From: Oscillatoria princeps RMCB-10
GTDB lineage: Bacteria; Cyanobacteriota; Cyanobacteriia; Cyanobacteriales; Oscillatoriaceae
Length of the DNA stretch: 44,372 bases
Assembly: GCA_019359235.1 (NCBI GenBank)
Contig: JAHHHT010000012.1
Span: 195,648-240,019, forward strand
Direction: 5' to 3'
Within the stretch, counting starts at the first letter, position 1. Each line of letters opens with the position of its first letter. Below, in pieces: positions 1 through 26,886 of this stretch. A program made the position numbers and the translations under genes. The notes beneath the pieces were generated by a model that was not told the origin of the DNA, did not search any database, and worked only from the letters and a program-made list of their open reading frames with translations.

Positions 1-1008
1 CGGACATTTTCAATGGAGGCGTCGATAAAGTCTTCTTGGCGGAAAGTCACTCGCACCTGAACATCTTTGGGCAAGCCGGCTCTCACTTCTTCCATTGCCG
101 CCTCAATGGCGCGAGTGACGGCGGGAGTGTCCGCTTGGGGCTGTTTGTTGACCATCACCACAACGGCTTTTTTGCCATTCAAGCTGCCGTCGCCGCGCTT
201 GAGGGCAGCCCCGATTTGCACTTCGGCAACATCTCCCAATCTGACGGGCGTGCCGGTGCGAGAGGTGATGGCAGATTGCTTCAAGTCGTCAATGGATTCA
301 ATCCGCCCGACTCCCCGGATTAGCAGTTCTTGGTCTGGGTTGATGAGGAATCCGCCAGGAGCGTTGACGTTAGCCGCAGCGGCTGCTTCTGTAACGTCTT
401 GCAAGGAGACATCAAAGGCTTTCAGCTTGGCTGGGTCAACTAATACTTGATACTGGCGGATGTCGCCGCCATACGCGATTACTTGGGAGACGCCGGGGAC
501 AGCCAGCAGCCGGTTTGTGACTTGCCAGTCAACAATTCGCCGCACTTCCATGAGGGAAGTGGTTTCGGAGGTGAGCGCATATTGCAATACCGTGCCGATG
601 GGGGAGCTGATGGGGGAAATTTGCGGGGAATCTGCGCCTTCTGGCAGTTTTTCTTGCGCTTGCTGCAATCGCTCGGTGACCAGTTGGCGAGCTTGGTAGA
701 TGTCGGTTTGCCAGTTGAAGATGACTCTCACAACAGAAAGACCGACGGCTGAGGCGGAGCGCACTGTTGTGACGCCGGGAGTGCCATTAATGGCGCTTTC
801 AATGGGTAAGGTGACGAGGGATTCGACTTCTTCTGGCGCTAAGCCGGCGGCTTCTGTTTGGATTTCCACTTGCGGTGGGGCAAAGCTGGGGAAGACATCC
901 ACCGGCATTTGCGAGGCGACGCGAAATATCCAAAGGGTGATCAGGATGCCGGCGAGGATAACTAGCCAGCGTTGCGCAATTGACCATTTGATGATAGCAC
1001 TGAGCATT
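1..1008 (-). CDS. Heavy-metal efflux RND transporter, CzcA/CusA/NrsA family. Only the N-terminal ~336 aa are present; the gene runs off the 5' edge of the window.
   Basis: Reverse-complement translation begins with ATG at 1008..1006 and reads MLSAIIKWSIAQRWLVILAGILITLWIFRVASQMPVDVFPSFAPPQVEIQTEAAGLAPEEVESLV..., the characteristic HME-RND N-terminus (TM1 followed by a large periplasmic loop). It is not in the ORF track because it has no stop codon inside the window. The plus-strand ORFs listed between 36 and 1074 are antisense artefacts of this gene. Confidence 0.75.
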
Positions 1009-4528: not shown

Positions 4529-6046
4529 ATGTCAACAATGTCAGCGGAATCACAACCCCCTAAAGTAGTCGTCGTCGGTGCCGGTTGGGCCGGCTTGGGG
4601 GCGACCCATCACCTAGCCAAACAAGGCTACGACGTGACGCTGCTGGAAGCGGGTTCCTATCCGGGGGGCTTGGTTGCAGGCTGGAAAACTGCCGGCGGGC
4701 GTTCCGTAGAAGCAGGCATTCATGGCTTCTGGTATCCCTACCGGAATATCTTCTCGCTCGTGCGAGAATTGGGACTCAATCCTTTCACCCCTTGGACTCG
4801 TTCCGCGCAGTATTCACCGGCAGGGTTGGAAGTTGAATCGCCCATTTTCCAAGAAGAACCGCGACTCCCCACCCCGCTGGGGACTTTTCTCTACCCCCAA
4901 TTCAAGCGTTTGCCTTTGATTGACCGGCTTTCTGCTTTGCCCCTGCTTCACACACTCGCTGATTTTGACAATTCCGATGAAGCTTGGCGGCGGTACGACT
5001 CCGTTACCGCACGAGAACTTTTCAAACAGTTTGGCGTCTCGGCGCGACTGTACCGCGATTCCTTCGAGCCAATGCTGCTGGTGGGACTGTTTGCGCCGGG
5101 AGAGCAGTGTTCGGCAGCGGCAGCTTTGGGAATGCTTTACTATTTTATTTTAGCGCACCAGCCGGATTTTGATGTAGTTTGGTGCCGGGGAACGGTGGGA
5201 GAGAAGATATTTCGCCCGTGGTGTTCCGCTATCGAAAAAGCCGGTGGGCGCACGCTCACCCAGCGGCGAGTCAGCGATATCAGGACTGACAGTGCCGGTA
5301 AGGTGACAGGTGTTGTTTGCGGCGATGAAGTGTTTGAGGCGGATGCGGTTATCTTTGCAGTTGGGATAACCGGCATGAAAAAGATTGTCGCCAGTAGCCG
5401 CACTCTGCAAAGCCGCAAGGAATTCCAGAACATTATGAATCTGGGGGCGGTTGACGTGCTAGCAACTCGGCTGTGGTTTGACCGCAAAATTTCCATTCCC
5501 CGCGCTTCTAATGCTTGCTTCGGGTTCGACGCGACAACCGGCTGGACGTTTTTTGACCTCAACGCGCTGCACGACGAGTTCCGCGACGCACCGGGAACGG
5601 TTGTGGAAGCGGATTTTTACCACGCCAACCAGCTTATTCCATTGAGCGATGAGGAAATTGTCCGGAAAGTACAGGGGGATTTAGCGACCTGTGTGCCGGC
5701 TTTTGGGGGAGCGAAGGTTATCGACAGCAGTGCGATTCGTTTGCGGCAAGCTGTCACGCACTTTTTTCCGGGTAGCTACCAGTATATGCTGCCTGCTGTG
5801 ACAAGTTTTGAGAATGTGCTGGTGAGCGGGGATTGGATTGTCAGCCGGCACGGTTCGTGGTCGCAGGAAAAGGCGTATGTGACGGGTTTGGAGGCGGCGA
5901 ATTTGGTGGTTGAGCGTTTCGGGCGCGGGAGTAAGGCGGAGATTGTGCCGGTGGAGCCTGATGAGCCGCACATACAAGTTGCGCGGACTGTGAACAAGAC
6001 AGTGCGGGAATTGGGGAAAGCTTTCTTGCCGGATTTTTGGCTATAG
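4529..6046 (+). CDS. FAD-dependent oxidoreductase of the amine-oxidase / carotenoid-desaturase-like family.
   Basis: N-terminal Rossmann motif VVVVGAGWAGLGATHHLAKQGYDVTLLEA, then GIHGFWYPYRNIFSLVRELGL. At 505 aa its length is typical of the PDS/ZDS/HpnE-like family. Confidence 0.65.
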   Translation: MSTMSAESQPPKVVVVGAGWAGLGATHHLAKQGYDVTLLEAGSYPGGLVAGWKTAGGRSVEAGIHGFWYPYRNIFSLVRELGLNPFTPWTRSAQYSPAGLEVESPIFQEEPRLPTPLGTFLYPQFKRLPLIDRLSALPLLHTLADFDNSDEAWRRYDSVTARELFKQFGVSARLYRDSFEPMLLVGLFAPGEQCSAAAALGMLYYFILAHQPDFDVVWCRGTVGEKIFRPWCSAIEKAGGRTLTQRRVSDIRTDSAGKVTGVVCGDEVFEADAVIFAVGITGMKKIVASSRTLQSRKEFQNIMNLGAVDVLATRLWFDRKISIPRASNACFGFDATTGWTFFDLNALHDEFRDAPGTVVEADFYHANQLIPLSDEEIVRKVQGDLATCVPAFGGAKVIDSSAIRLRQAVTHFFPGSYQYMLPAVTSFENVLVSGDWIVSRHGSWSQEKAYVTGLEAANLVVERFGRGSKAEIVPVEPDEPHIQVARTVNKTVRELGKAFLPDFWL

Positions 6047-6072
6047 TGCGTCTAAATCATTCGTGTAAATTT

Positions 6073-6129
6073 CAGACCCCCGGAAGAGGGCGGGCACGGG
6101 GGCCCGCCCCTACGAAACCGGGGGTCTGG
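6073..6129. repeat. Family-E nested GC-rich hairpin (cagacccccgg...gggcgggcacgggggcccgcccctacgaaaccgggggtctg).
   Basis: Has inner and outer inverted repeats. Related copies are at 24858..24889 and 37066..37099. Confidence 0.6.
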
Positions 6130-6297
6130 GCCAAGAGCGGTTGCGCCAATCATTTAGAACTGCTATATTATAGAAATAATCCCTAGGAAGTGCGGTTGCC
6201 GGTTGAGCCTCGAAGGGGCGAGCTATCAACCAGTAGATGCGCGACGTTGGGGAAAGTTTTAAACCGGCTTTTTGGCTGTATTAACAGGAGTCCCGAC

Positions 6298-6501
6298 ATG
6301 CAGTTTGAACTGTACCAGAGTGTAGCCTTGCGCCGTGACTTGCCACAATCTAACCTGAAAAAGGGGGATGTGGTGACGGTGGTTGACTTCGTTCCTTACC
6401 CGCTCGAAGGTTGTGAGGAGTGCTACATCCTGGAAAGATTTAACGCTGCAGGAGATAGGGAGCTAGTGGCTGTCTCCGGTTCGGATTTGGCAGCGGTGTG
6501 A
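6298..6501 (+). CDS. DUF4926-like small protein (67 aa).
   Basis: Reads MQFELYQSVALRRDLPQSNLKKGDVVTVVDFVPYPLEGCEECYILERF.... An AGGAG Shine-Dalgarno lies 8 bp upstream. The same fold recurs in the N-terminus of the 25026..25409 product. Confidence 0.5.
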   Translation: MQFELYQSVALRRDLPQSNLKKGDVVTVVDFVPYPLEGCEECYILERFNAAGDRELVAVSGSDLAAV

Positions 6502-6518: not shown

Positions 6519-6606
6519 ACTACAAACTTTTGGGCTAAAGCCCAAATACAAACTTTTGGGCTAAAGCCCAAATACAAACTTTTGGGCTAAAGCCCAACTA
6601 CAAACG
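6519..6606. repeat. Family-G tandem repeat: three copies of a ~27-bp unit, tacaaacttttgggctaaagcccaaa.
   Basis: Tandem copies containing the near-palindrome ttgggctaaagcccaa. Reverse-complement copies are at 13036..13188 (x6) and 38113..38136 (x1). Confidence 0.8.
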
Positions 6607-6798: not shown

Positions 6799-6999
6799 AT
6801 GCGGCAAGTGCTTATCTATACTGATGAAGATGGCAACTGGGTGGCCGAATGTCCCAGCCTACCGGGTTGCGTCAGCCAAGGACAGACCAAAGAAGAAGCC
6901 ATTATTAATATCAAAGAGGCGATTAATTTATATATCTCCGCATTAGAAGAGGACGGTCTGCCCGTTCCCGAAGAACGTTTTGATGCCCTCTTGGTTTGA
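6799..6999 (+). CDS. hicB: HicB-like antitoxin (UPF0150 family).
   Basis: Reads MRQVLIYTDEDGNWVAECPSLPGCVSQGQTKEEAIINIKEAINLYISALEEDGLP. It overlaps the downstream HicA gene by 20 nt. Confidence 0.65.
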   Translation: MRQVLIYTDEDGNWVAECPSLPGCVSQGQTKEEAIINIKEAINLYISALEEDGLPVPEERFDALLV

Positions 7000-7219
7000 G
7001 AGCAAATTACCTAGAATTTCGGGCCGAGAGTGCGTCAAGGCTCTATCAAAGATTGGTTTCTATGTCAAGCGACAGGAAGCCAGCCATATTGTTTTGCGTC
7101 GGGATGAGCCATTTTCTCAGTTCGTCGTGCCCGACCATCAGGAACTTCACAAAGGCACACTCCGCGCTATCATTCGCGACGCTGACCTCAGTGTCGATGA
7201 GTTTATCCAGCTGCTGTGA
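6980..7219 (+). CDS. hicA: HicA-family toxin (YcfA-like mRNA interferase).
   Basis: Reads ...ECVKALSKIGFYVKRQEASHIVLRRDEP...VVPDHQELHKGTLRAIIRDADLSVDEF, carrying the conserved S-H-hydrophobic motif. Confidence 0.65.
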   Translation: MMPSWFESKLPRISGRECVKALSKIGFYVKRQEASHIVLRRDEPFSQFVVPDHQELHKGTLRAIIRDADLSVDEFIQLL

Positions 7220-22997: not shown

Positions 22998-23130
22998 AGG
23001 GACAGGCGAGACGCCTGTCCTACGTCTTTTCTCGTTCCCAGGCGGAGCCTGGGAACGCACACAGGGAGGCTCTGCCTCCTTTTTTTGCCTGGGAAGGGAC
23101 AGGCGGGACGCCTGTCCTACGTCTTTTTTT
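22998..23130. repeat. Cluster of three elements: family-B hairpin, family-C element, family-B hairpin.
   Basis: The three pieces are gggacaggcgagacgcctgtcctac (22998..23023), cgttcccaggcggagcctgggaacg...gggaggctctgcctcc (23033..23079) and gggacaggcgggacgcctgtcctac (23106..23130). Confidence 0.65.
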
Positions 23131-23205
23131 TGTTTCCTAGAGCGGGAAAATCGGAAAGCAGAATTTTGGCCTATTTTTTCTGGCGAAACCTAGCAAGGCA
23201 AAGCC

Positions 23206-23985
23206 TTACCAAGAATCATAGTCCGTCACGTCGATAGTGGTTCCCGTTTTTAAGTCTTCCACTTTAACGGAAAAGCCGGTGGGCCCGATACTAACCTGGC
23301 CGAACTTATAGATATATCTAGATGTTAGCGCCTCTTCGCCCACCCAGTTGGGCCAAGCAACCAGATTCTGATATTCTCGATCGGCAATTTTGCAAATCAG
23401 CTGTGCGTTTCGCTTTCCAGTCCAAGGATGGGACAATTCCTCATCCGTTACATAGGGTAAAAATGAATACTGAATTTCCGTTTCTCTCGCCCACTCAGCT
23501 TGTTCCTCTGGACGGCTGAGCGGCCTGATTAACTCTAAAGCTTCTTGGGCGAGGCTATGCCACACTTTCAGCTTGCAGCGACCGGCATCCAAAATTTGAA
23601 AGCAGTAAATACAGGCACCGCTGCTGCCACCCGCTCCATAATAAGGCAGGATTTTACCCGCTTTTTTTGCCTGTTTCATCAATTCTAATATACTCCTGTC
23701 CACTGGAAATCTCCCCCGGTAATAGCCAGTCGCTAGCTGTTCTTCAAACACTTGGGTGTCAACTTCGCGCTCCCACTGATAAATTTTGTCTAATTCCTCA
23801 CCGGCAGCCACCCGAAATCCAATTTCGCCGTTTAAATGCTGAACTTCTATCACCGGTTGCTCCCTCCTAGATGATTTATTGATAGCGGTTCTCAGTTTGT
23901 GATGGTACGCCTGTCCAAAACAAAACAGTTTGCTTTTTGACGATAATTTCCAGCCCCACGGCGCAGTGTCGCTCGTGCCGGTCAT
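23206..23985 (-). CDS. Hypothetical protein (259 aa).
   Basis: Intact ORF with no recognisable domain. It contains GAGGSSGACIYC. It is divergent from the PIN toxin module. Confidence 0.4.
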   Translation of the reverse strand: MTGTSDTAPWGWKLSSKSKLFCFGQAYHHKLRTAINKSSRREQPVIEVQHLNGEIGFRVAAGEELDKIYQWEREVDTQVFEEQLATGYYRGRFPVDRSILELMKQAKKAGKILPYYGAGGSSGACIYCFQILDAGRCKLKVWHSLAQEALELIRPLSRPEEQAEWARETEIQYSFLPYVTDEELSHPWTGKRNAQLICKIADREYQNLVAWPNWVGEEALTSRYIYKFGQVSIGPTGFSVKVEDLKTGTTIDVTDYDSW

Positions 23986-24144
23986 TTGTAAACGAGGCGC
24001 TTTGGTGAGCCAGTCAGACGCCTTCCCCTACCACCGGCTCCTGGCCACTTCTAATCAGTAGCTCGGTTCAACTAGCAGGGCATTGCGCCTTACCGACAGC
24101 TGTGCTATCATTATAATATGTTTTTAAGGGAAAAGGTAGGAATA

Positions 24145-24380
24145 ATGCCAGCCCTCACATTAACCGACGACCAGGTGATTGAATTAGTCAAGCAATTGCC
24201 TCGTAGCAAACAAGAAGAATTGTGCAACTAGCGCAGCCTTGGTAATCCTGGGCGAACTTGGCGCAGGATGCACCAGAGAAGGCGCGGCGTGCTGCTGCGA
24301 AACGGGGGCGAGACTGGGATGCCATGACAGAGGATGAGCGCGAAGAGTTTATTGATGAAGTGCTCCACGAGGAAGAATGA
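24145..24380 (+). pseudogene. Candidate antitoxin gene upstream of the PIN toxin, with a broken reading frame.
   Basis: ATG 24145 opens the frame MPALTLTDDQVIELVKQLPRSKQEELCN, which stops at TAG 24229. In a different frame a plausible C-terminal half follows, (L)AQDAPEKARRAAAKRGRDWDAMTEDEREEFIDEVLHEEE*. Its TGA overlaps the PIN ATG as ATGA. Confidence 0.4.
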
Positions 24381-24793
24381 CAGCCCCCACAGTTGTGTTC
24401 GGCACGAACATCCTGATATCTGCCGTCCTCTCACTGGCTGGCAAACCGTTTCAATGTACAGCACTGGCGAAAAGGGGTTTAGTAAAATCTGTCACCTGTC
24501 AGGAAATTCTTAATGAGTTTCAAGAAAAACTTACAGTCAAGTTCGAGTATGAGCCTCAACGCGCTCAAGCCTTTGTTCAAGAGGTACTCGACTATTCAGA
24601 GCTGGTGACGCTGACAAATACTCTCAGAGTAGTCGATGCTGACCCTGACGATGATATGGTTTTAGAGTGCGCCGTTGTCGGAGATGCTAGTTATATTATT
24701 ACAGGAGACCGGCATCTCCTGACCCTCGTCAGTTATCATGGTATTTCTATTCTTAAAGCAGCCGATTTTCTCGCTCTGCTTTTCCAGGGGTGA
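24377..24793 (+). CDS. PIN-domain toxin (putative toxin-antitoxin system toxin component, PIN family).
   Basis: Reads MTAPTVVFGTNILISAV...VVDADPDDDMVLECAVVGDASYIITGDRHLL. Acidic residues sit at PIN-like positions and there is a C-terminal ITGD motif. Confidence 0.65.
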   Translation: MTAPTVVFGTNILISAVLSLAGKPFQCTALAKRGLVKSVTCQEILNEFQEKLTVKFEYEPQRAQAFVQEVLDYSELVTLTNTLRVVDADPDDDMVLECAVVGDASYIITGDRHLLTLVSYHGISILKAADFLALLFQG

Positions 24794-24857
24794 GGTAGAT
24801 TATAAACAGCGAACGCGCTCATCTCGCCTGTCCTCTCGCCTGTCCAAAACACAACAC

Positions 24858-24952
24858 CGGGGGCGGCCACGGGGGGCCGCCCCTATAGGCTGTGGGCCAT
24901 TTTCTCGTTCCCAGCCTCAGGCTGGGAACGCACAGAGGGAGGCTCTGCCTCC
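24858..24952. repeat. Family-E hairpin (ccgggggcggccacggggggccgcccctatagg) followed by a family-C element (gttcccagcctcaggctgggaac...gggaggctctgcctcc).
   Basis: Inverted repeats. Confidence 0.6.
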
Positions 24953-25025
24953 TTTTCCTCGCCGCAACACCGGCGCTTCCCAGCTAAACCAGCAACTAGC
25001 GCTGATATAGCAGCAGTCATATTGG

Positions 25026-25409
25026 TTAGGACAATAGGAGCAACGGGAGCCGGGGAGCCGGGGAGCCGGGGAGGCCGGAATGTACGTTCCCTAAGTGCCT
25101 ACTGCTATATAAGAACCGGGCAAAGTCCAGCACTTCCCGCCGGCGCTCCTCAGAGAGATGAGCGATCGTCGCCGCGATCTTCTCCGATACTGACAGCCAA
25201 GTTTTGGTTTTCGCCTTCCAGACGACAATAAATTGCTCTGACGACAGCCGGCAGAGAGCTAAAGTTTCTCCCTCTTGATTGCTAAACTCCACCTCCCAGG
25301 TACTGTCGGGGTAACACTCCACTATCGCCCCTTGAACTCCTGAACGCAGGTTATGTTCAGGCAAGTCGGCTAGCAATTCTATCACATCGAACAGTTCTGG
25401 CTCAGTCAT
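25026..25409 (-). CDS. DUF4926-like N-terminal domain fused to a DUF2281-like (antitoxin-type) C-terminal segment. The 3' end of the ORF is uncertain.
   Basis: Reads MTEPELFDVIELLADLPEHNLRSGVQGAIVECYPDSTWEVEF, then EKIAATIAHLSEERRREVLDFARFL. The last ~25 codons run through a ggagccgg x4 simple repeat at 25036..25070. Confidence 0.45.
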   Translation of the reverse strand: MTEPELFDVIELLADLPEHNLRSGVQGAIVECYPDSTWEVEFSNQEGETLALCRLSSEQFIVVWKAKTKTWLSVSEKIAATIAHLSEERRREVLDFARFLYSSRHLGNVHSGLPGSPAPRLPLLLLS

Positions 25410-25465
25410 CGTCGCCTCCGTACATATAGGCGTCTCGCCTGTCCTCTCCTACCCCACACAGATTT

Positions 25466-25554: not shown

Positions 25555-26886
25555 TTACCCAATACACCGCTCAATCAACTCTTCCACCCCACTCACCGGC
25601 ACAATCCTCACCCCCAACTTCCCCGCAACTTCCCCCACCGTCATATCATCCAAAAACTTCGCCTCCCCATGCTTCAGCATCACCGAAGGCAGCAGAATCC
25701 CATCCCCCAAATCTTTCCCCTCCAAATTATACAGCAAATCCTCCCCAGTCAGCAAGCCGGTGACAGTAATATTTTGCCCCCAGTACCGGCTGGGAAAAGC
25801 CGCCATCTTCACCTCCAGCCCTTCAACCTGATTCAACCGGCACACAATCGGCCCAAACGCCCTCTCAACCGCATTCCCCACCACCCAAGTCAGCCGGCGC
25901 GGCGGAGATACAGCCGCCGGCAATAACCGCTCAGCAGCCCCTTCAAACTCTTTGAGAAACAGCCGAATCGAACCCACCCCATTGCCAATCTGGGGATAAT
26001 CTTCATACTCCGATTCTGCCGGCAACTCCTGACCGGCAATCAAAAACCACTCATCCGCCAGCCAAGCGCAATTCGACTTCATCTCCCGGCGAAACTTCTC
26101 TTGCAAAGCTCGCACTTGCGCAATCACTTCCCGCGCCTTTTCCGGAGTCACCGGCACCAGCTCATCCGCTGCCGGCCTGAACCTCGTCAGACCGGCAGGC
26201 ACCACCGCCACCGACGCCACAGCCGGCACCTTGCCGGTGTGAAACTTCGCCAAATCTAGCAAAGTCCTCTCCAAATGCTCCCCATCATTAATCCCCGGAC
26301 AGACAACCACCTGCGCGTGAACTTGCAACCGCCGCTTTTTAAACCACTTCAGCTGCTCCAAAATCTGACCGGCGCGCAAATTCTTCAGCAAGCGAACCCG
26401 CACCTCTGGCTCAGTCGCGTGCACCGACACATACAGCGGAGACAGCCGCATCCTCTCAATTCTATCCCATTCCTTCTGCGTCAAATTCGTCAGCGTCAAA
26501 TAGCTGCCATAAAGAAAACTCAGCCGGTAGTCATCATCCTTCAGATAGAGAGTTTCCCGCTTTCCCGGCGGCTGCTGGTCGATAAAGCAGAAAGGGCAGC
26601 GATTGTTGCACTGCATCAACCCATCAAATAGCGCCGTTTCAAACTCCAGCCCCAAATCCTCATCGAAATCCTTTTCAATTTCCAGCCGGTGCGTTTTCCC
26701 CTTGACATCTAAGACTTCTAGTGCTAAAATTTCATCAGCGCACAAGAATTTGTAGTCGATCAGGTCGCGGGGGCGCTCGCCGTTTATCGCCACGAGCCGG
26801 TCGCCCGGTTCAAACCCAATTTCCGCTGCTATCGAGTCGGGCAGCACCTTAGTGATTACGGCAGGACGAATTGAACTTTCACTCAT
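25555..26886 (-). CDS. DUF512 protein: N-terminal PDZ domain plus a radical-SAM-like core.
   Basis: PDZ segment (VITKVLPDSIAAEIGFEPGDRLVAINGE), then the Cys motif CNNRCPFCF. The length and architecture match the DUF512 family, which is common in cyanobacteria. Confidence 0.7.
   Translation of the reverse strand: MSESSIRPAVITKVLPDSIAAEIGFEPGDRLVAINGERPRDLIDYKFLCADEILALEVLDVKGKTHRLEIEKDFDEDLGLEFETALFDGLMQCNNRCPFCFIDQQPPGKRETLYLKDDDYRLSFLYGSYLTLTNLTQKEWDRIERMRLSPLYVSVHATEPEVRVRLLKNLRAGQILEQLKWFKKRRLQVHAQVVVCPGINDGEHLERTLLDLAKFHTGKVPAVASVAVVPAGLTRFRPAADELVPVTPEKAREVIAQVRALQEKFRREMKSNCAWLADEWFLIAGQELPAESEYEDYPQIGNGVGSIRLFLKEFEGAAERLLPAAVSPPRRLTWVVGNAVERAFGPIVCRLNQVEGLEVKMAAFPSRYWGQNITVTGLLTGEDLLYNLEGKDLGDGILLPSVMLKHGEAKFLDDMTVGEVAGKLGVRIVPVSGVEELIERCIG

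What the first reader, a model, noticed from the sequence alone, without database searches (positions are those of the whole stretch)
24145..25409. PIN-toxin module with a broken antitoxin frame, facing a DUF4926::DUF2281-like fusion
The PIN-domain gene (24377..24793) has the classic ATGA start/stop overlap with an upstream reading frame, but that upstream gene is not intact. An N-terminal piece (MPALTLTDDQVIELVKQLPRSKQEELCN*) stops at TAG 24229. A plausible C-terminal piece (..AQDAPEKARRAAAKRGRDWDAMTEDEREEFIDEVLHEEE*) lies in another frame. Either the antitoxin is degraded, leaving a possibly orphan toxin or ongoing decay, or it is made by an unusual start or a frameshift. Convergent to the PIN gene is a 127-aa protein that fuses a DUF4926-like domain to a DUF2281-like segment, and DUF2281 is a recognised antitoxin partner of PIN toxins. 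A second stand-alone DUF4926 gene (6298..6501) sits directly upstream of the HicB/HicA pair. DUF4926 recurring next to toxin-antitoxin modules, once physically fused to an antitoxin-type domain, hints at a role in toxin-antitoxin biology.
Basis: partly seen in the sequence, partly recalled or inferred. Interest (0 to 1): 0.5.

Follow-up and report, generated by a model that had tools for sequence, protein, structure and literature searches.

The report
Decaying toxin-antitoxin gene cluster
This stretch of an Oscillatoria genome is a small graveyard of toxin-antitoxin modules: a PIN toxin that has lost its catalytic aspartate beside a twice-broken antitoxin, and an antitoxin-type DUF4926 gene whose own DUF6883 toxin has been deleted. 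This is ordinary gene decay, not a new system.

Summary
The gene upstream of the PIN_3 gene (24377..24793) is a broken copy of a conserved antitoxin of about 80 aa. It carries two lesions: a 7-nt deletion at 24227/24228, which creates TAG 24229..24231, and a GAA->TAA nonsense codon at 24243..24245.

All 119 homologs have the catalytic Asp there, and so does a 45-nt remnant of the same gene in a close relative. Toxin and antitoxin are therefore both disabled, and the module is a relic.

The convergent 127-aa "fusion" is not a new fusion. It belongs to an abundant family, typically 103 aa, made of DUF4926 plus a C-terminal helix. The cognate partner is a DUF6883 (BECR-Tox3) gene directly upstream, seen in 60 of 73 testable loci. 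In the window that toxin gene is deleted; only about 27 nt remain. A 97-nt MITE-like insertion replaced the last two codons, giving 127 aa.

The second DUF4926 gene (6298..6501) has also lost its syntenic DUF6883 partner and is unrelated to the adjacent HicAB pair.

A role for DUF4926 in toxin-antitoxin biology is supported, but it was already proposed in a 2026 preprint. Interest is low.

The parts
24145..24231 (+). Antitoxin pseudogene, N-terminal piece (28 codons, then TAG 24229..24231). A 7-nt deletion lies between 24227 and 24228.
   Evidence: sequence; profile match E 1e-13. DNA alignment with the nearest homologs shows the 7-nt gap.
24228..24380 (+). Antitoxin pseudogene, C-terminal frame (LAQPW * SWANL...HEEE), ending in TGA 24378..24380. 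An in-frame TAA at 24243..24245 replaces GAA in the three nearest homologs. TTG 24258 is the start of the 40-aa ORF that JGI annotates.
   Evidence: profile match E 3e-21. Restoring 7 nt and reverting TAA to GAA gives an 80-aa protein that matches the family profile end to end at 127 bits.
24377..24793 (+). PIN_3/TIGR00305 toxin gene with an intact ORF. Codon 9 is GGC (Gly, 24401..24403) where the family has the catalytic Asp.
   Evidence: domain hits. Asp in 119 of 119 homologs; among 53 columns conserved at 90% or more, the window deviates only at D9G and V108I; the orthologous remnant in L182 has GAC.
24833..24883 (.). G+C-rich hairpin repeat downstream of PIN. It is 98% identical to the sequence upstream of DUF6883 in L182, and a related copy lies at 6088..6110.
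24900..24956 (.). 57-nt dispersed repeat. Its other copy is at 23027..23083 (91% identity). The deletion breakpoint in L182 (24943/24944) falls inside it.
25010..25106 (.). 97-nt MITE-like insertion. It has imperfect terminal inverted repeats and an internal GGGAGCCG x3 repeat, and is flanked by a TATAT duplication at 25005..25009 and 25107..25111. It is absent from the 96%-identical relative L182. It replaces the codons Gln-Arg-stop with a 26-residue tail.
25026..25409 (-). Orphan antitoxin/immunity-type gene of the DUF4926 family (typically 103 aa), here 127 aa because of the insertion. The predicted fold is an SH3-like barrel (about residues 9-65) plus two C-terminal helices carrying the LSEERRREVLDFARFLY motif.
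   Evidence: 86 of 120 homologs are exactly 103 aa. AlphaFold2 pLDDT 95 for the 103-aa homolog P0121..
25406..25434 (-). Last ~27 nt of the deleted DUF6883 toxin gene, including the ATGA overlap with the DUF4926 start. Upstream of it are only dispersed repeats, then the DUF512 gene, which ends at 25555.
   Evidence: L182 412..738 matches window 25434..25107 at 96%. (no DUF6883 coding sequence in the window).
23942..23986 (-). Older 15-codon remnant of a second DUF6883 gene (NDRHERHCAVGLEII against toxin residues 68-82). It overlaps, in another frame, the spurious 5' extension of the 259-aa ORF.
   Evidence: blastn E 4e-8; tblastn E 2e-4; homologs of the 259-aa ORF are about 213 aa and align only from query residue ~46.
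6298..6501 (+). Second orphan DUF4926 gene (67 aa; homologs are mostly 81-84 aa). It is truncated at the C-terminus, and its syntenic DUF6883 partner is missing.
6799..7219 (+). Apparently intact HicB (6799..6999) and HicA (6983..7219) pair. It is unrelated to the DUF4926 gene.
   Evidence: HicB_lk_antitox 40.3 bits. HicA_toxin 62.6 bits.

Best explanation
The interval holds two toxin-antitoxin modules at different stages of decay.

(1) A VapBC-like operon: an unnamed antitoxin of about 80 aa followed by a PIN_3 toxin.
- The toxin's first catalytic Asp has mutated to Gly (GAC->GGC). By analogy with VapC D->A mutants, this should abolish Mg2+-dependent RNase activity (inferred).
- The antitoxin has since accumulated, or alongside this acquired, a 7-nt deletion and a nonsense codon (shown).
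- The operon therefore most likely makes no functional antitoxin and a harmless PIN protein.

(2) A toxin-first DUF6883 (BECR-Tox3 RNase)/DUF4926 module on the other strand.
- The toxin gene has been deleted down to its last ~27 nt (shown).
- The DUF4926 gene survives as an orphan, with its 3' end rewritten by a 97-nt MITE-like insertion (shown).

The two modules are neighbours because toxin-antitoxin genes cluster, not because they interact. The same toxin loss happened at the second DUF4926 locus (6298..6501).

In every case the toxin was disabled or lost while antitoxin sequence persisted. That is the order expected from standard toxin-antitoxin logic, because loss of an antitoxin while its toxin is still active is counter-selected (inferred).
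For: Antitoxin:
- Both fragments match the family profile. The nearest homolog is 81 aa.
- 78 of 80 loci with PIN relatives carry an antitoxin homolog, typically 79-83 aa where the ORF could be read.
- The 7-nt gap and the GAA->TAA change are visible in the DNA alignment.
- Repairing both lesions gives an 80-aa protein that matches end to end at 127 bits.

Toxin:
- Asp is present at position 9 in 119 of 119 homologs; the window has Gly. Only one other, conservative, deviation occurs in 53 conserved columns.
- A 45-nt remnant of the same gene in a close relative (L182, 93% identical) still has GAC.

DUF4926:
- 201 homologs were found, and 86 of the best 120 are exactly 103 aa.
- DUF6883 lies directly upstream in every full-context locus among five homologs looked up and in 60 of 73 metagenome loci with room for it.
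- L182, 96% identical, carries DUF6883+DUF4926 and fixes the deletion and insertion boundaries in the window.
- No DUF6883 coding sequence is detectable in the window.

Second locus: relatives show the order amine oxidase-DUF6883-DUF4926. The window has the oxidase (80% identity) and DUF4926 but no DUF6883.

Literature: a preprint describes DUF6883 as BECR-Tox3 with a downstream DUF4926 as a toxin-immunity arrangement (bioRxiv 10.64898/2026.08.28.747851).

Assembly: an independent assembly is identical across the lesions.
Against: - No activity was measured. Loss of nuclease activity through D9G is inferred from general PIN/VapC knowledge.
- Apart from D9G the PIN ORF is well preserved, so inactivation is recent, or the protein keeps a non-catalytic role.
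- The conserved C-terminal 40 codons of the antitoxin remain open behind a TTG (24258), and JGI annotates them as a gene. A truncated neutralising peptide is not excluded.
- pN/pS of the DUF4926 gene against L182 is 0.35, from only 13 differences. This hints that the orphan is still under some constraint and is not simply junk.
- The Logan contig may come from the same read set, so read-level error is not fully excluded.
- The metagenome loci are partly redundant, so 60 of 73 overstates the number of independent contexts.
Confidence: 0.8

Rival explanations
1. The module is still active in a reduced form. The 40-aa C-terminal fragment (TTG 24258..24380), which holds the most conserved part of the antitoxin, is translated and neutralises a PIN protein that keeps residual or altered activity. 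This would be a split or truncated antitoxin.
For: - The C piece covers the best-conserved profile positions 60-102 (E 3e-21).
- JGI calls it a gene.
- The ATGA overlap with PIN is preserved.
- The PIN ORF is otherwise intact.
- A TATAAT box is visible at 24112..24117.
Against: - The start would be TTG with no Shine-Dalgarno-like sequence before it.
- No full sigma-70-type promoter was called.
- The catalytic Asp is lost in the toxin, though 119 of 119 relatives keep it.
- None of the upstream antitoxins read is a comparably short C-terminal-only gene with a full-length PIN, apart from truncated contigs.
Confidence: 0.08
2. The lesions are sequencing or assembly errors, and the real genome has an intact antitoxin and an Asp9 PIN.
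For: The record is a MAG-type single 8.6-Mb contig. Long-read assemblies can carry indel errors.
Against: - Three independent differences of three kinds (a 7-nt deletion, a G->T substitution and an A->G substitution) are not typical error patterns, and none lies in a homopolymer.
- A separately assembled Logan contig is identical over 1785 nt.
Confidence: 0.04
3. The orphan DUF4926 genes are retained on purpose as stand-alone immunity genes against incoming DUF6883/BECR-Tox3 toxins, for example phage MuF-fused effectors or plasmid modules. Alternatively, the 127-aa protein substitutes for the broken PIN antitoxin through its DUF2281-like helix.
For: - Two orphan copies are kept as open reading frames in one 44-kb window.
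- pN/pS is 0.35.
- 13 of 73 related loci also lack an upstream DUF6883.
- The preprint reports DUF6883 fused to Phage_Mu_F.
- hhalign aligns the C-terminal helix of the DUF4926 family with residues 10-31 of the PIN_3 antitoxins (probability 67%, E 5e-5).
Against: - Both orphan copies have damaged 3' ends: a MITE-derived tail in one, truncation and partial divergence in the other.
- The shared helix corresponds to the antitoxin's N-terminus, not its conserved C-terminal half, which by analogy with VapB is the toxin-binding part.
- The PIN protein needs no antitoxin if D9G kills it.
Confidence: 0.12

Closest known systems
VapBC-type type II toxin-antitoxin modules with PIN_3/TIGR00305 toxins (e.g. 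Synechocystis slr8014 PIN3 with ssr8013 DUF2281; Kopfmann et al. 2016, PMC4963859)
   Same: - Antitoxin-first operon with overlapping stop and start (ATGA).
- PIN_3 toxin of 138 aa.
- Small acidic-tailed antitoxin.
- Abundant in cyanobacteria.
   Different: - The antitoxin family (about 80 aa, MPxLTLSNEQVIELVKQLP...DWDxMTEEEREAFIDDVVHED) matches no Pfam or NCBIfam model above threshold.
- In this copy the antitoxin is a pseudogene and the toxin lacks the first catalytic Asp.
DUF6883 (BECR-Tox3) / DUF4926 predicted toxin-immunity pair (bioRxiv 10.64898/2026.08.28.747851)
   Same: - The 127-aa gene and the 67-aa gene are DUF4926 proteins.
- Their homologs sit directly downstream of DUF6883, usually with a 4-nt overlap.
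   Different: - In the window both toxin genes are gone.
- The 103-aa subfamily carries an extra conserved two-helix C-terminal extension that Pfam's DUF4926 model does not cover.
DUF2281 (PF10047, COG5559) antitoxins of PIN toxins
   Same: A helix of about 25 residues (LSEERRREVLDFARFLY) resembles the N-terminal motif of DUF2281 and the N-terminus of the PIN_3 antitoxins.
   Different: The score is below the gathering threshold (21.7-25.2 against 26.5), only 25-27 of 64 profile positions are covered, and there is no PIN partner. This is a shared motif, not membership.
Orphan antitoxin/immunity genes and toxin-antitoxin pseudogenes in bacterial chromosomes (general phenomenon)
   Same: Toxin lost or inactivated first, antitoxin remnants persisting, repeats and MITEs at the breakpoints.
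   Different: Nothing unusual. This is a well-documented example because a close relative (L182) keeps the complementary parts.

Membership tests
PIN_3 / TIGR00305 toxin (VapC-like) | PIN_3 domain match above the curated threshold | tested here: met
   PF13470 63.6 bits (cutoff 27); TIGR00305 50.1 bits (cutoff 29.15).
PIN_3 / TIGR00305 toxin (VapC-like) | Conserved acidic active-site residues, including the first Asp in the (V/I)FDTN motif | tested here: not met
   Gly9 (GGC 24401..24403); Asp in 119 of 119 homologs. The other invariant acidic positions (D89, D91, D92, E97, D111) are present.
PIN_3 / TIGR00305 toxin (VapC-like) | Intact cognate antitoxin gene immediately upstream | tested here: not met
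   Homologous sequence is present but broken by a 7-nt deletion and a TAA codon.
PIN_3 / TIGR00305 toxin (VapC-like) | Toxicity, and neutralisation by the antitoxin | not testable with these tools
   Needs expression assays.
DUF6883/DUF4926 (BECR-Tox3 toxin-immunity) pair | DUF4926 domain above threshold | tested here: met
   127-aa protein: PF16277 82.7 bits (cutoff 29.1). The 67-aa protein scores only 26 bits, but its homologs score 42-44 bits.
DUF6883/DUF4926 (BECR-Tox3 toxin-immunity) pair | DUF6883 gene directly upstream on the same strand | tested here: not met
   Only ~27 nt of its 3' end remain at 25406..25434, and there is none at 6047..6297. Relatives have it.
DUF2281 (PF10047) antitoxin | Match to the Pfam model above the gathering score over most of the domain | tested here: not met
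   21.7 bits (cutoff 26.5), profile positions 1-25 of 64. The intact 103-aa homolog scores 25.2 bits.
DUF2281 (PF10047) antitoxin | Partnered with a PIN toxin in one operon | tested here: not met
   The PIN gene is convergent and has its own upstream antitoxin remnant. Family members pair with DUF6883.
HicAB | HicB and HicA domains in adjacent overlapping genes | tested here: met
   PF15919 40.3 bits at 6799..6999; PF07927 62.6 bits at 6983..7219.

The most novel reading that the evidence does not exclude
The two DUF4926 genes are not leftovers. They are retained, toxin-less immunity genes that protect the cell against DUF6883/BECR-Tox3 RNases delivered by phages (MuF fusions) or mobile elements. 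Their conserved C-terminal helix, shared with PIN_3 antitoxins, would be a common regulatory or oligomerisation module of cyanobacterial antitoxins.
Probability: 0.12. Interest if true: 0.5.

Novelty: new member of a known kind. Interest (0 to 1): 0.22.

Why it matters
Mostly for annotation. The PIN gene should not be counted as an active toxin. The 40-aa and 259-aa gene calls are artefacts of decay. The '127-aa fusion' is a 103-aa family member with a MITE-derived tail.

The locus is a clean natural example of the order of toxin-antitoxin decay: toxin first, antitoxin later. A close relative keeps the complementary halves, an intact DUF6883-DUF4926 pair and a nearly erased PIN module.

It also gives independent neighbourhood support (60 of 73 loci) for the recently proposed DUF6883/DUF4926 pairing. 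It points out two things that current domain models do not describe: the ~80-aa antitoxin family of PIN_3 toxins, and the helical extension of the 103-aa DUF4926 subfamily.

Tried and rejected
- Programmed frameshift or readthrough: rejected. Two unrelated lesions would need bypassing, and upstream antitoxin ORFs in relatives are uninterrupted.
- The middle reading frame (NKKNCATSAALVILGELG...) as part of the antitoxin: no profile match.
- DUF6883 remnants next to either DUF4926 gene: tblastn and a custom HMM found none, apart from the 27-nt end seen by blastn and a 15-codon older remnant at 23942..23986.
- PADLOC defence models: no hits for any of the proteins.
- PDB by sequence for the PIN family, the antitoxin family and the DUF4926 family: nothing significant.
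- First AlphaFold2 run with a 17-sequence alignment of the 127-aa protein: pLDDT 54, unusable. A 128-sequence alignment gave pLDDT 95, but Foldseek against the PDB returned only generic SH3 barrels at E >= 0.015.
- Consensus promoter scan: none called.
- Other copies of the 97-nt insertion, in the window or in the fetched loci: none.
- Its single-strand fold is not exceptional (z = -1.6).
Full report
**Origin and observation**

The window's PIN protein is identical to a protein of the Oscillatoria princeps RMCB-10 MAG (JGI 3300057162, an 8.63-Mb contig).

- ATG 24145 opens a 28-codon frame that ends at TAG 24229..24231.
- A second frame reads ...LAQPW*SWANLAQDAPEKARRAAAKRGRDWDAMTEDEREEFIDEVLHEEE and ends in TGA 24378..24380.
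- That stop overlaps the PIN start (ATG 24377) as ATGA.

PIN (24377..24793) matches PIN_3 (63.6 bits) and TIGR00305 (50.1 bits). A Logan contig assembled separately (SRR35645343; window 23101..24885) is 100% identical.

**The antitoxin is a twice-broken copy of a conserved ~80-aa family**

The nearest PIN homolog (72% identity) is preceded by an 81-aa gene: MPTLTLTLTDDQVIELAEKLPDRKKQQLLKLLLMQPWESWAKLTYDGPDKARQAAAQRGKNWDAMTEDEREEFIDELLHED.

Of 80 genome loci encoding PIN relatives, 78 carry a homolog of this antitoxin. Where the upstream ORF could be read it is typically 79-83 aa and abuts or overlaps the PIN start.

A profile built from these antitoxins matches both window fragments:
- the N piece at E 1e-13, profile positions 14-50;
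- the C piece at E 3e-21, profile positions 60-102.

A DNA alignment with the closest relatives shows two lesions:
- a 7-nt gap in the window between 24227 and 24228, which creates AAC-TAG;
- GGTAATC where the three nearest relatives have GGGAATC, that is GAA->TAA at 24243..24245.

Restoring the 7 nt and reverting TAA gives an 80-aa protein that matches the profile end to end at 127 bits. The family has no Pfam or NCBIfam match above threshold; there is only a weak resemblance to the VapB15 N-terminus.

**The toxin is disabled too**

In an alignment with 17 homologs, and then across all 119 retrieved homologs, position 9 is Asp (the VFDTNILIS motif). The window has Gly (GGC, 24401..24403).

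Among 53 columns conserved at 90% or more, the window deviates only there and at a conservative V108I. From established knowledge of PIN/VapC enzymes, this first Asp coordinates the catalytic metal, and its replacement (for example VapC D7A) gives non-toxic protein. Loss of activity is therefore inferred, not measured.

A 1006-nt Logan contig from a close relative (L182, SRR27560336) contains a 45-nt remnant of the same PIN gene, 93% identical, that still reads GAC. The change to Gly is thus specific to the window's lineage.

**The '127-aa fusion'**

Its homologs are numerous: 201 at E <= 1e-3, and 86 of the best 120 are exactly 103 aa. All share the DUF4926 domain plus a conserved C-terminal segment...SEQIAAxIxHLSEERxREVLDFARFLYQR.

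AlphaFold2 with a 128-sequence alignment gives a confident model (pLDDT 95). It is a five-stranded SH3-like barrel followed by two helices. Foldseek finds only generic SH3 domains.

The DUF2281 match is below threshold and covers one helix: 21.7 bits in the window protein and 25.2 bits in an intact homolog, against a cutoff of 26.5. Profile-profile comparison aligns this helix with residues 10-31 of the PIN_3 antitoxins (probability 67%, E 5e-5). This is a shared short motif, not domain membership.

**Its real partner is DUF6883**

Five homologs were looked up. In every recovered locus with enough upstream sequence, the gene is preceded by a 115-116-aa DUF6883 gene with a 4-nt overlap.

Among 73 metagenome loci with at least 330 nt upstream, 60 have a DUF6883 homolog directly upstream on the same strand. 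Some of these loci are redundant.

A 2026 preprint classifies DUF6883 as the BECR-Tox3 RNase family. It notes the conserved downstream DUF4926 as a toxin-immunity arrangement (bioRxiv 10.64898/2026.08.28.747851).

The 13 loci without a detectable DUF6883 often sit beside other toxin-antitoxin genes: PIN, PemK-like and HEPN-like by inspection.

**What happened in the window**

L182 is 96% identical over the DUF4926 gene and carries DUF6883 (92..439) plus DUF4926 (436..747).
- Similarity to the window starts only 27 nt before the DUF4926 ATG (window 25434). Upstream of that the window has only dispersed repeats, up to the DUF512/radical-SAM gene.
- No DUF6883 coding sequence is detectable anywhere in the window.
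- At the 3' end, L182 reads ...FLYQR*. The window has a 97-nt insertion (25010..25106) flanked by a TATAT duplication. It has imperfect terminal inverted repeats and an internal GGGAGCCG x3 repeat, and it replaces QR* with a 26-residue tail.
- Downstream, L182 continues with window 25009..24944, then jumps to the 45-nt PIN remnant (24421..24377), then to 23394..23232.

In that relative, therefore, the PIN module is almost erased while the DUF6883/DUF4926 pair is intact. The window shows the mirror image.

A further 15-codon DUF6883 remnant lies at 23942..23986 (minus strand). It overlaps the spurious first ~45 codons of the '259-aa' ORF. Homologs of that ORF are about 213 aa and align only from residue ~46.

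**The second DUF4926 gene**

The gene at 6298..6501 (67 aa) is named DUF4926 by NCBI, and its homologs are mostly 81-84 aa.

In relatives the gene order is amine oxidase (503 aa), DUF6883 (107 aa), then DUF4926. The window has the oxidase (4529..6046, 80% identity) and the DUF4926 gene, but no DUF6883 in the 250 nt between them.

The window copy is truncated at the C-terminus and matches only the first 26 of 57 Pfam positions. A 26-nt x3.3 tandem repeat follows it.

HicB (6799..6999) and HicA (6983..7219) look intact. They are a separate module about 300 nt downstream.

**Interpretation**

The best-supported reading (about 0.8) is ordinary decay of clustered toxin-antitoxin modules:
- the PIN toxin inactivated by D9G and its antitoxin then, or concomitantly, broken;
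- two DUF6883 toxins deleted, leaving orphan DUF4926 genes with damaged 3' ends.

Shown: homology of the fragments, the lesions, the invariant Asp, the partner association, and the deletion and insertion boundaries. Inferred: loss of nuclease activity, the order of events, and absence of function of the leftovers.

Rivals:
- a truncated but functional 40-aa antitoxin (0.08);
- sequencing error (0.04);
- retained orphan immunity or cross-talk (0.12; pN/pS 0.35 on 13 differences).

**Novelty**

Low. The PIN_3 module and the DUF6883/DUF4926 pairing are known kinds. The locus adds a decayed member of each. It also adds two small descriptive points: the unnamed ~80-aa PIN_3 antitoxin family, and the helical extension of the 103-aa DUF4926 subfamily, which shares a motif with it.

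Noticed in passing
window 25005..25111: A 97-nt MITE-like element with imperfect terminal inverted repeats and an internal GGGAGCCG x3 repeat, flanked by a 5-bp TATAT duplication. It is inserted at the 3' end of the DUF4926 gene and is absent from the 96%-identical relative L182. No other copy was found in the window or the fetched loci.
   Followed up: partly
window 23206..23985 (-): The 259-aa ORF is over-extended. Homologs are about 213 aa and align from query residue ~46, so the true start is near 23850. It has no Pfam, NCBIfam or PADLOC match. In L182 this gene is truncated at its 5' end by a deletion.
   Followed up: partly
window 23942..23986 (-): A 15-codon remnant of a second DUF6883 toxin gene (86% nt identity to the L182 toxin) lies between the 213-aa-family gene and the antitoxin promoter region. 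A co-linear 'TKAP' match about 12 codons upstream in another frame suggests a longer, frameshifted remnant.
   Followed up: partly
window 23027..23083 and 24900..24956; also 23000..23030 / 23097..23127 and 24822..24845 / 25428..25449: Dispersed hairpin-type repeats: a 57-nt unit at 91% identity, and the GGACAGGCGAGACGCCTGTCC palindrome family. They bracket the block that holds the 213-aa-family gene and the PIN module. They also lie at or near the deletion breakpoints seen against L182.
   Followed up: partly
window 6216..6278: A degenerate duplicate of the last ~21 codons of the amine-oxidase gene (4529..6046) lies just upstream of the orphan DUF4926 start. It is separated from the real gene end by a G+C-rich hairpin repeat (6088..6110). 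This is probably a scar of the rearrangement that removed DUF6883.
   Followed up: no
window 6521..6605: A 26-nt tandem repeat (3.3 copies, 98% matches; TACAAACTTTTGGGCTAAAGCCCAAA) lies immediately after the truncated DUF4926 gene.
   Followed up: no
L003 2756..4333 (and L004-L008): In the nearest relative the antitoxin-PIN_3 module is tandemly duplicated: two antitoxin/PIN pairs with 60-63% identical toxins. It lies next to an XisI gene, a PhdYeFM antitoxin and an MmeI-type restriction-modification gene, which is a typical defence/toxin-antitoxin island.
   Followed up: no
window 25555..26886 (-): A PDZ + radical-SAM-like + DUF512 protein (443 aa) lies immediately upstream of the position where the DUF6883 gene was deleted. 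It is an ordinary housekeeping-type neighbour.
   Followed up: no
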